Assembly (NCBI GenBank): GCA_048886685.1
Contig: JBHLKM010000003.1
Location: 64,001 to 128,000, forward strand
Direction of reading: 5' to 3'
Source: Candidatus Hodarchaeota archaeon
GTDB lineage: Archaea > Asgardarchaeota > Lokiarchaeia > Sigyniarchaeales > SOKP01
DNA: 64,000 bases
In this document: positions 12,046-13,352 of the stretch, one piece after another
How the letters are laid out: each line of letters starts with the position of its first letter
How positions within the stretch are numbered: the stretch's first letter is position 1
Notes under the pieces: model-generated
Seen by the model: only the letters and a program-made list of their open reading frames with translations
Database searches by the model: none
Told to the model about the DNA's origin: nothing
Made by a program: the position numbers and the translations under genes

Positions 12046-13352
12046 TTGAAGAAAGTAGCAATAATAGGTATAGGCATTACACCTTTTCGAGCACGATATC
12101 TAGATAAAACATATTTCGAACTAGCATATGATGCTACAAGCCTAGCTCTCGAAGATGCCAATAAAAATGGTGCGGATATTACTCATAAGGATTTGCAGTC
12201 AACTGTCTACGGGATTTATAACGAACTATTTGAACGTCAATTCATGCCTGATATTTTTGTTAATAGCTATCTTGGCATGAATAATAAACCAGGAACACGT
12301 ATCGCTTCAGGAGGTGCAACTGGGGGATATACGGTTAGAATGGCTTATGCAGAAGTAGCTTCAGGACTTTCAGATTTATGTTTATGCATCGGAGTTGAGA
12401 AGTGTAATGATTGCTATGATGAACAAACTGGAGTGACTACTCCTGAAGTACTTAACGCCATTGCTTATAGTGCGGATATGACGTATATTATATAGTAACA
12501 TAATTACTATATGAGCGGAAGAATATCCGATGGGAAAATATTGTTTGGATGTCCCAACTATCCCCATTGATGGCAGCTTCATCATATGTTTCAATGGTTA
12601 ATGCTCACTTTGAGGAATTTGGAAATCCAACAGAAGAACAGATGGCATTAGTTTCAGTAAAAAATCATGGTAATGCAATTAATAATCCTAAAGCTCAATC
12701 GCCAATGAAAATTACAGTAGAAGATGTTATGAATTCAAGAATTATTTGTTATCCTTTTAAATTATTAGATTGCTGTCTTTATTCTGAGGCCTCTGCCGCC
12801 TTAATACTAGCCAATGAAGAAAAAGTTAAGGAATTAAAGATAGAAAAACCGATTTGGATTTCTGGAGTAGGTGCCGCTAATACAGACTGTTTTATAGGGA
12901 ATAGAGAAGATATGGGAAGGTTGTATTCAAATATTTATGCAGCAAAAGCAGCCTATAAAATGGCACAATTAGACTATGACAAAATCAAAAGTCAAATTGA
13001 TTTAGCAGAATTGCATGATGCTTTCTCTGGACAAGAGGTTATCTCCTACGAGGAATTAGGATTTGTAAAATTCGGAGAAGGCGGTAGTTGGATTGAATCA
13101 GGAGGACCACTAATGGATGGTGAATTACCATGTTGCCCTTCAGGAGGGCTTATTGGGTGTGGTCATGCTGTAGGGGCTACGGGGATTATGTCCACAGGAG
13201 AGGCAGCACTTCAATTGAGAGAAGATGCTGGAAAGCATCAAGTGAAGACAATTAAAAATGGAAGAGCTATTTCTCATTCAATTGGGGGTCCTGGTGCAGC
13301 TTATGCTGCGGTTATTGTGATGGAAAATGAGGAGGGGATTAGTAAAAAATGA
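12046..13352 (+). CDS. Thiolase-family (SCPx/Ltp-type) protein interrupted by two putative BHB-type introns; join(12046..12486,12521..12536,12568..13352), 413 aa
   Basis: The N-half (KKVAIIGIG...SGGATGG...GVEK) and C-half (VSVKNHGNA, DLAELHDAF, PSGGLIGCGHAVGATG) are in different frames. Removing 34+31 nt yields one ORF that restores the D-x-x-Y-E-x-P motif seen in paralogs. TTG start 8 nt after GGTG. Confidence 0.85.
12487..12520 (+). other. Putative archaeal BHB/BHL mRNA intron 1 (34 nt)
   Basis: 11-bp intron hairpin (12488-12498/12504-12514), 7-bp exon-exon stem CGGAUAU/AUAUCCG, central helix ACGU/GCGG, 3-nt bulges AU^A and AA^G at the frame-restoring junctions. Confidence 0.8.
12537..12567 (+). 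other. Putative archaeal BHB/BHL mRNA intron 2 (31 nt)
   Basis: Central helix UGGG/CCCC, bulges AA^A and AU^U, intron stem AUA/UAU plus GUU-GG/CC-AAC closing an AUGU loop. Removal restores the frame. The junction could sit 1 nt to the left (12536-12566), which would give Leu instead of Met. Confidence 0.7.

What the first reader, a model, noticed from the sequence alone, without database searches (positions are those of the whole stretch)
12473..12529. Intron 1 (34 nt): near-canonical BHB/BHL structure
Seen: exon-exon stem CGGAUAU(12473-79)/AUAUCCG(12523-29), a perfect 7 bp, then a G12480/A12522 mismatch. Central helix ACGU(12481-84)/GCGG(12515-18) has U-G, G-C and C-G pairs plus an A/G mismatch. 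The 5' bulge is AU^A (12485-87) and the 3' bulge is AA^G (12519-21). The intron stem is 11 bp, UUAUAUAGUAA/UUACUAUAUGA, with loop CAUAA. The intron carries in-frame TAG TAA, so unspliced mRNA gives a truncated 149-aa product. Cut sites predicted from structure alone match those required by protein homology. Inference: this relaxed motif (3 of 4 helix pairs, internal loop) suggests a broad-specificity EndA, as known for the (alpha-beta)2 and epsilon2 types.
Basis: partly seen in the sequence, partly recalled or inferred. Interest (0 to 1): 0.88.

Follow-up and report, generated by a model that had tools for sequence, protein, structure and literature searches.

The report
tRNA-type intron in Asgard thiolase gene
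A 34-base insert that breaks a thiolase-family gene of a Loki-type Asgard archaeon has the shape that the archaeal tRNA-splicing enzyme cuts, and related genomes indicate that it must be removed from the messenger RNA, which papers report for only one other archaeal protein gene (cbf5).

Summary
Ninety-five uninterrupted copies of the same gene junction in 86 related genomes show that 12487-12520 is an exact 34-nt insertion. Its ends are the two cut sites predicted by the bulge-helix-bulge (BHB) geometry.

The same insert sits at the same site in five other genomes of three other genera and in two metagenome contigs. Its hairpin keeps pairing through five compensatory double changes. All 8 third-codon positions in the exon parts of the motif are frozen in intron-bearing alleles but vary freely in intronless ones. 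The interrupted genes are the only copies found, have dN/dS of 0.02-0.05, and give 413-418-aa proteins only once the inserts are removed.

The genome encodes a catalytic EndA subunit with the crenarchaeal specificity loop (Lys/Arg kept), a His-less second subunit, and RtcB. About 200 bp around the introns in this genome matches alleles of another genus, so the introns arrived by recombination.

No RNA data were available, so splicing itself is inferred. This scan's earlier AI notes report similar mini-introns elsewhere in this genome and in other archaea. The papers I could search show such introns only for cbf5.

The parts
12046..12486 (+). Exon 1 of the thiolase-family gene (TTG start; ends ...AYSADMTY)
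   Evidence: ORF list and Pfam Thiolase_N. Aligns to orthologs up to the TAT codon at 12484-86.
12473..12479 (+). 5' strand of the outer (exon-exon) helix h, CGGAUAU
   Evidence: Pairs with 12523-29 in the MFE and RNAalifold structures. Invariant in 6 alleles.
12481..12484 (+). 5' (exon) strand of the central helix H, ACGU. The last three bases pair; A12481 never does.
   Evidence: H scored |||x.
12485..12487 (+). 5' bulge AUA; predicted cut after U12486
   Evidence: Unpaired in the MFE and consensus folds. The insertion starts at 12487.
12487..12520 (+). Intron 1, 34 nt, phase 0, with in-frame TAG TAA
   Evidence: Exact insertion relative to 17 aligned orthologs and 95 intronless junctions. 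Homologous inserts of 28-35 nt sit at the same site in 5 genomes and 2 metagenome contigs.
12488..12514 (+). Intron hairpin h': 11 bp (12488-98 with 12504-14) and loop CAUAA
   Evidence: Five pairs have compensatory double changes; 95% of cells are paired.
12515..12518 (+). 3' (intron) strand of the central helix H, GCGG
12519..12521 (+). 3' bulge AAG inside a 2x5 internal loop (BHL-like); predicted cut after A12520
   Evidence: The insertion ends at 12520.
12523..12529 (+). 3' strand of the outer helix h, AUAUCCG, inside the micro-exon
12521..12536 (+). 16-nt micro-exon (EYPMG plus the first base of a Met codon)
   Evidence: Orthologs have exactly 16 nt between the two insertion points.
12537..12567 (+). 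Intron 2, 31 nt, phase 1. It has a 5' bulge AA^A, a 3-bp GGG/CCC helix and a weak outer helix.
   Evidence: Exact insertion against orthologs. Present in 4 of the 5 other intron-1 genomes. All paired columns are invariant and the changes fall in unpaired columns.
12568..13352 (+). Exon 3 (thiolase C-terminal domain)
   Evidence: Pfam Thiolase_C_1. The spliced ORF is 413 aa.
12450..12660 (+). Recombinant patch: the exon sequence around both introns resembles intron-bearing alleles of another genus
   Evidence: Identity to L026 is 142/156 inside the patch against 783/1020 outside (p 1e-5). Informative sites switch from the own-genus state to the other-genus state. The patch tree and the rest-of-gene tree disagree.

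Best explanation
Positions 12487-12520 are an archaeal endonuclease-type (BHB/BHL) intron inside the coding sequence of a thiolase-family gene.

Proposed mechanism: in the pre-mRNA, the end of exon 1 pairs with the following micro-exon (7 bp). It also pairs with the 3' end of the intron (3 bp plus a purine-purine mismatch). This presents U12486|A12487 in a 3-nt bulge and A12520|G12521 in an internal loop, on opposite sides of the short central helix. The (alpha-beta)2 splicing endonuclease of this genome, whose catalytic subunit carries the crenarchaeal specificity loop, cuts after the second nucleotide of each bulge, and RtcB joins the exons. With the neighbouring 31-nt intron 2 removed in the same way, a 413-aa protein is made. 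Unspliced mRNA stops after 149 aa.

Shown here: the geometry, the exact boundaries, conservation and covariation, purifying selection on the interrupted genes, and the presence of the enzymes.

Inferred: cleavage and ligation themselves, and the cut-after-second-bulge-base rule, which I take from established knowledge of EndA.

Origin: the intron pair reached this genome by homologous recombination of a patch of about 200 bp from an allele of another genus.
For: - Geometry and fold.
- Boundaries: the insert is exact against 17 aligned orthologs and 95 intronless junctions in 86 genomes.
- Recurrence: the same site is occupied by 28-35-nt homologous inserts in 5 genomes of 3 other genera and in 2 metagenome contigs.
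- Covariation: the intron stem has 5 double compensatory changes and 93% of cells paired, against 27-50% when the partners are slid.
- Exon constraint: 8 of 8 third-codon positions in the exon parts of the motif are invariant among 5 distinct intron-bearing alleles, against 68/400 elsewhere (p 1e-6). Only 2/8 are invariant among 18 intronless alleles. None of the 95 intronless junctions has the synonymous combination that all intron-bearing alleles share.
- Selection: dN/dS is 0.02-0.05 with pS 0.7-0.8 among intron-bearing alleles. Spliced ORFs are 413-418 aa and every unspliced reading stops at aa 149.
- Sole copy: the intronless-junction pattern was not found in any of the six intron-bearing genomes.
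- Enzymes: an EndA alpha with Tyr/His/Lys and the specificity-loop Lys/Arg, a His-less second subunit, and an intact RtcB.
- Chance: the rate of such a motif at a pre-specified site is about 7e-7.
Against: - There are no RNA data. No spliced junction with this allele's synonymous signature was found in the metagenome collection or among the database proteins.
- The central helix has only three standard pairs, and the 3' site lies in a 2x5 internal loop, so a strict BHB is not met.
- The outer and central helices never vary among the six alleles. The covariation evidence therefore comes from the intron hairpin only, which a DNA-level palindrome could also keep.
- The intron-bearing alleles probably share one origin and are not independent.
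- My genome-wide motif scan found as many hits in reversed-sequence controls as in the real genome, so the motif alone is not diagnostic.
Confidence: 0.85

Rival explanations
1. The insert is a disabling insertion. The gene is a pseudogene in this genome, and the hairpin is a small inserted palindrome that is never removed.
For: The unspliced reading stops at aa 149. There is no RNA evidence. Hairpin motifs of similar quality are as frequent in the real genome as in reversed-sequence controls.
Against: Interrupted alleles persist in four genera with saturated synonymous change but dN/dS of 0.02-0.05, and with no further stops or frameshifts. In all six genomes the intronless-junction pattern found no second copy. 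Exon synonymous sites that pair in the motif are frozen only in intron-bearing alleles. The insert is single-copy in the genome.
Confidence: 0.04
2. The insert is skipped by the ribosome (programmed translational bypassing, as in T4 gene 60 or the byp elements of yeast mitochondria) rather than spliced.
For: The insert is a short hairpin with a stop codon soon after the take-off point, as in known bypass elements (this comparison is from my own knowledge).
Against: Bypassing needs matching take-off and landing codons. Here the take-off codon would be UAU (12484-86), but the triplet before the resumption codon GAA is GAA (12518-20), which does not match. Intron 2 splits a codon (A|TG, phase 1), which bypassing cannot do. 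The exact BHB register at both ends is not explained by this reading.
Confidence: 0.03
3. The insert is removed from the RNA, but by some other activity than EndA/RtcB (another endonuclease, or self-cleavage).
For: Removal is supported only indirectly. The 3' site departs from a strict bulge.
Against: The geometry and cut positions are those of EndA substrates. The 30-nt intron in G023 fits the same register with a 4/4 central helix, and the 5' half of intron 2 fits it too. So do clear tRNA introns called by ARAGORN in this genome. There is no Rfam ribozyme or other family match. At 34 nt the insert is far too short for a group I or II intron.
Confidence: 0.06
4. Assembly or binning artefact: a chimeric contig that joins reads of two organisms inside the gene.
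For: The genome bin is rated 8.4% contaminated. The 200-bp patch resembles alleles of another genus.
Against: The patch is only 90-91% identical to the nearest other-genus alleles and is not a copy of any of them. The same two inserts occur in independent assemblies and metagenome contigs.
Confidence: 0.01

Closest known systems
BHB intron of the cbf5 (pseudouridine synthase) pre-mRNA in Desulfurococcales and Sulfolobales (Watanabe 2002; Yoshinari 2006; Yokobori 2009, PMC2738675)
   Same: A short endonuclease-type intron inside a protein-coding sequence. The cleavage motif is often relaxed. The host has a hetero-oligomeric EndA. The intron is present in some lineages and absent in others.
   Different: A different gene (thiolase family) and a different phylum (Asgard/Promethearchaeia). 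Two introns lie 16 nt apart, leaving a micro-exon. There is evidence here for transfer between genera in a short recombination patch, and for selection on exon synonymous sites. Splicing is not shown experimentally here, whereas it is for cbf5.
Archaeal tRNA/rRNA BHB and BHL introns cut by (alpha-beta)2 EndA with the crenarchaeal specificity loop (Hirata 2011, PMC3241643; Kaneta 2018, PMC5829648)
   Same: The layout is helix, 3-nt bulge, short helix, bulge or loop, helix. Cuts fall at symmetric positions. The enzyme set is the same. Asgard tRNA genes are known to be heavily interrupted (PMC11291895; bioRxiv 10.64898/2026.10.13.758758).
   Different: The outer helix and half of the central helix are made of coding sequence, not of a tRNA body. 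The motif therefore constrains codon choice.
Translational bypass elements (T4 gene 60; byp elements of Magnusiomyces mitochondria; from my own knowledge)
   Same: Short hairpin inserts in coding sequences, carrying stop codons, that do not prevent synthesis of the full protein.
   Different: Those need matched take-off and landing codons and cannot split a codon. Neither condition fits here.

Membership tests
Archaeal BHB intron, strict hBHBh' form | Two 3-nt bulges on opposite strands, separated by a 4-bp helix | tested here: not met
   The 5' bulge is 3 nt. The central helix has 3 standard pairs plus an A.G (A.A in two alleles) that never pairs in any of 6 alleles. The 3' AAG lies in a 2x5 internal loop.
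Archaeal relaxed BHB/BHL intron (substrate of broad-specificity EndA) | At least one proper bulge next to a central helix, the second site in a bulge or loop at the symmetric distance, and flanking helices h and h' | tested here: met
   h is 7 bp, h' is 11 bp and H is 3 bp. Both cut sites fall after the second unpaired base, on either side of the central helix.
Archaeal relaxed BHB/BHL intron | Structure-predicted cut sites equal the true exon-intron borders | tested here: met
   The borders are set independently by 17 aligned orthologs and 95 intronless junctions.
Archaeal relaxed BHB/BHL intron | The structure is conserved, with compensatory change, in related sequences | tested here: met
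   Five double changes in h'. h and H are invariant, with their synonymous sites frozen.
Archaeal relaxed BHB/BHL intron | The host encodes a splicing endonuclease of a broad-specificity type and an RNA ligase | tested here: met
   An alpha subunit with the catalytic triad and specificity-loop Lys56/Arg58, which align with A. pernix K44/R46. A second subunit with His replaced by Thr. An intact RtcB. That the two subunits assemble was not tested.
Archaeal relaxed BHB/BHL intron | Cleavage by EndA and ligation of the exons in RNA | not testable with these tools
   No transcript data.
cbf5-type pre-mRNA intron (BHB intron within a coding sequence) | It interrupts a conserved ORF, and removal restores a full-length conserved protein | tested here: met
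   The spliced ORF is 413 aa and collinear with orthologs. The unspliced reading stops at aa 149.
Translational bypass element | Matching take-off and landing codons flanking the skipped stretch | tested here: not met
   UAU at take-off against GAA at the landing position. Intron 2 splits a codon.
Repeated mobile insertion (MITE-like) | Several copies in the genome and a target-site duplication | tested here: not met
   blastn-short finds only the element itself plus chance 11-15-nt matches. There is no duplication at the borders.

The most novel reading that the evidence does not exclude
In this family of Loki-type Asgard archaea, the tRNA-splicing enzymes act as a general mRNA-splicing system. 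Mini-introns of about 30 nt occupy several sites of one ordinary metabolic gene: at least four insertion regions were seen here in this thiolase across relatives. They can lie 16 nt apart. They move between genera in recombination patches of about 200 bp. They force the surrounding codons to keep an RNA shape. That would be a spliceosome-independent case of intron gain, spread and exon constraint in the closest prokaryotic relatives of eukaryotes.
Probability: 0.55. Interest if true: 0.85.

Novelty: new member of a known kind. Interest (0 to 1): 0.72.

Why it matters
The papers I could search document endonuclease-type introns inside archaeal coding sequences for cbf5 only, and in Crenarchaeota. 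This case sits in an Asgard archaeon and comes with population-style evidence:

- presence and absence of the intron among 159 related genomes;
- compensatory changes in the intron stem;
- codon choice frozen by the RNA motif;
- a recombination patch that shows how the intron arrived.

Together these make three questions directly testable: how such introns are gained, how they constrain coding sequence, and how broad the substrate range of the Asgard splicing endonuclease is.

Tried and rejected
1. A genome-wide search for BHB motifs that join two open frames. With a 16-pair score the true register gave no more hits than registers slid by 1-3 nt. With a 22-pair score the real genome and the reversed genome gave 264 and 262 hits. 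After adding an open-frame filter the counts were 18 against 4. This is suggestive but underpowered. It cannot see intron 1 itself, because the micro-exon is too short. I therefore make no claim of my own about how many such introns the genome holds.
2. blastn-short of both introns against the genome found no other copy.
3. Rfam gave no match in 12300-12750.
4. The search for a spliced junction in metagenome contigs found only two more intron-bearing alleles. Database proteins are at most 95% identical to any intron-bearing allele, so no transcript-derived product could be recognised.
6. Explanations considered and rejected: translational bypass, frameshift, intein, group I/II intron, and assembly chimera (see the rival explanations).
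7. ARAGORN handles the multi-intron tRNA genes of this genome poorly: it tRNAs, 21 of them with a called intron. A proper comparison with the tRNA intron motifs was therefore not made.

Full report
**What is there.** The window is contig C3:64001-128000 of a 4.4-Mb genome bin with 31% G+C. Sources name its closest protein relatives Promethearchaeota/Promethearchaeia, that is, Loki-type Asgard archaea.

A thiolase-family gene starts at 12046 and is followed by a DUF35/OB-fold gene. Its reading frame stops at TAG 12493-95, after 149 codons. The C-terminal domain continues in another frame. Between the two halves, a third frame reads EYPMG.

**Checking the observation.** Each element in the finding is present:
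- the 7-bp exon-exon stem 12473-79/12523-29;
- the unpaired G12480/A12522;
- the three pairs C12482-G12517, G12483-C12516 and U12484.G12515, next to an unpaired A12481/G12518;
- the AUA bulge 12485-87;
- an 11-bp intron stem with loop CAUAA.

In the minimum-energy fold the 3' AAG lies in a 2x5 internal loop rather than a clean bulge. The fold has -19.0 kcal/mol against -10.2 (sd 2.6) for shuffles (z -3.4).

**Independent definition of the borders.** Eighteen orthologous genes were fetched from relatives: 17 from the same genus and one from another family of the order. They are 86-93% identical in protein. Seventeen of them were aligned across this region.

In that DNA alignment the window has exactly 34 extra bases between ...ACG TAT and GAA TAT CC..., and exactly 31 extra bases between ATGGGAA and TGATGGC. 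The orthologs have exactly 16 nt between the two points. A pattern search found 95 such uninterrupted junctions in 86 of 159 genomes of the class.

The insertion is thus 12487-12520. This is what one gets by cutting after the second base of each bulge of the proposed motif. That cleavage rule is established knowledge of EndA, which I recall rather than tested. Clear tRNA introns of this genome fit the same register.

Shifting the junction by one base either creates a stop or replaces a conserved Glu. Removing both inserts gives a 413-aa ORF that is collinear with homologs.

**Chance.** I scored 22 pairs: 4 central, 8 outer and 10 inner. Intron 1 has two defects. Across the genome, both strands and lengths 20-60, such a score occurs 264 times in 3.6e8 tests, which is 7e-7 per test. 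It is equally common in reversed sequence.

So the motif cannot be used to discover introns in this A+T-rich genome. A hit at one pre-specified pair of borders is nevertheless very unlikely by chance.

**Related genomes.** A pattern allowing any synonymous codon found an insert at the same site in five more genomes. All belong to other genera of the same family: G134, G150, G151, G155 and G068. Two metagenome contigs also carry it.

The inserts are 28-35 nt and clearly homologous. Four of the five genomes also carry intron 2. None of the other 50 genomes of the window's own genus has intron 1.

On the six-sequence alignment the proposed structure has 93% of cells paired, against 27-50% when partners are slid. 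Five pairs of the intron stem show changes on both sides that keep pairing. RNAalifold predicts the same structure on its own.

The outer helix and the three central pairs never vary. The fourth 'pair' of the central helix is never a standard pair, so the relaxed feature is itself conserved.

**Selection on the exon part of the motif.** The outer helix and half of the central helix are coding sequence.

Among five distinct intron-bearing alleles, synonymous sites elsewhere are nearly saturated (pS 0.7-0.8). Yet all 8 third-codon positions inside the motif are invariant. Seven of these are synonymous and one belongs to a Met codon. The comparison figures are 68/400 elsewhere in the gene (p 1e-6) and 16/64 within 12400-12700 (p 6e-5). 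Among 18 intronless alleles only 2 of the 8 are invariant.

All intron-bearing alleles read GAT ATG ACG TAT / GAA TAT CCG. Among the 95 intronless junctions, ACG occurs 6 times, CCG 5 times, and the full combination never.

A DNA palindrome or a dead gene would not produce this pattern. It is what a required RNA structure predicts.

**The interrupted genes are functional.**
- dN/dS between intron-bearing alleles is 0.02-0.05, the same as between intronless ones.
- After removal of the inserts every complete allele gives one ORF of 413-418 aa. Unspliced, all stop at codon 149.
- None of the six intron-bearing genomes has the intronless junction elsewhere.
- The other thiolase paralogs of this genome are at most 42% identical.

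**Enzymes.** The genome has two EndA-family genes.
- The 198-aa product is most like the catalytic alpha subunit of Aeropyrum pernix EndA (E 5e-34). It keeps Tyr, His and Lys. It aligns without a gap through the crenarchaeal specificity loop, with Lys56 and Arg58 at the places of K44 and R46. That loop and that lysine were shown to confer cleavage of BHL and off-position introns (PMC3241643).
- The 200-aa product has Thr in place of the catalytic His, as expected of a structural beta subunit.
- Kaneta et al. (PMC5829648) report the (alpha-beta)2 type with this loop for Asgard archaea.
- RtcB is present and intact.
- ARAGORN finds only 35 tRNA genes, 21 with a called intron. This agrees with reports of heavily interrupted Asgard tRNA genes.

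**How the intron got here.** Outside 12400-12690 the window's gene is closest to a same-genus ortholog: L005, 86% identity, sister in the tree with SH-aLRT 97. It is about 76-77% identical to the intron-bearing alleles.

Between about 12450 and 12660 this reverses. Exon identity is 142/156 to L026 against 783/1020 elsewhere (p 1e-5). Informative sites switch to the other-genus state, and the patch tree places the window with the g22 intron-bearing alleles. Intron 1 of G134 is identical to the window's.

The pair of introns therefore entered this lineage by homologous recombination of a short patch. The agent is unknown. The introns are too small to encode anything, and they are single-copy in the genome.

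**Rivals.** I considered a dead gene, ribosomal bypassing, removal by another activity, and an assembly chimera. Each is contradicted by at least one tested feature (see the rival explanations).

The main gap is the absence of RNA evidence. The metagenome collection held no spliced junction with this allele's signature. No database protein was close enough to be a transcript product.

**Comparison with what is known.** The closest precedent is the cbf5 pre-mRNA intron of Crenarchaeota (PMC2738675). A 2025 paper on these enzymes still cites only the cbf5 work for mRNA introns. My full-text searches found no report for Asgard protein genes.

The mechanism proposed here is the same as for cbf5. 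The differences are:
- the gene and the phylum;
- the tandem arrangement with a 16-nt micro-exon;
- the evidence for exon constraint;
- the evidence for lateral transfer.

Earlier AI notes of this scan report similar mini-introns at other places in this genome and in other archaea, and short-patch exchange in another gene. I used them as leads. The patch exchange I tested for this gene. The genome-wide count I could not reproduce with my own crude scan.

**Verdict.** This is very probably a spliced BHB/BHL intron (0.85). It is a new member of the cbf5 kind, with unusually good comparative support.

Noticed in passing
L004:2361-2390 (G023, minus strand of the locus): The ortholog in a same-genus genome lacks introns 1 and 2 but has a different 30-nt insert about 75 nt upstream (GATGAA|...|CAAACA), with an in-frame TAA. 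Of the three border placements the alignment allows, only one gives a BHB. That one has a perfect 4-bp central helix and an AAA 5' bulge.
   Followed up: partly
L032-L037 (G084, G110, G111, G112, G120, G121); proteins P0117-P0121: Nine genomes of the family (8 of genus g22, 1 of g1) carry 29-30-nt inserts in the same gene at the HDAFSGQ|EV motif, and G111 carries one at a slightly different point. Five database protein clusters end at exactly this place. These inserts were not folded or checked for BHB geometry.
   Followed up: partly
window 12316-12336 (SGGATGG): The position where thiolases carry the nucleophilic Cys reads Gly/Ala-rich sequence without a Cys, here and in homologs. The protein may therefore not be a true thiolase. 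Earlier first-reader notes say the same.
   Followed up: no
own genome: C5:160588-160639(-), C8:150348-150389(+), C1:386845-386898(+), C19:37570-37623(+) and 13 more: Long-stem BHB-like motifs whose removal joins two open frames of 50 or more codons. There are 18 hits at 17 distinct places in the genome against 4 hits in the reversed control. One is a false register at intron 1 itself. The others were not examined.
   Followed up: no
whole genome: ARAGORN finds only 35 tRNA genes, 21 with a called intron, several of them odd calls such as 'tRNA-Stop' with very long introns. The tRNA set is evidently heavily interrupted and poorly handled by this program.
   Followed up: no
L016 (G036, another family of the order); tree: The gene tree does not follow the genus labels. 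g22 alleles nest among g1 alleles, and a genome of another family has an 86%-identical copy. This suggests the gene itself is exchanged between lineages.
   Followed up: no
window 12527-12529 with 12473-75 or 12571-73: The CCG of the micro-exon is needed both by the outer helix of intron 1 and by the only (3-bp) outer helix I could find for intron 2. The two motifs may therefore not form at the same time, and ordered splicing is possible.
   Followed up: no
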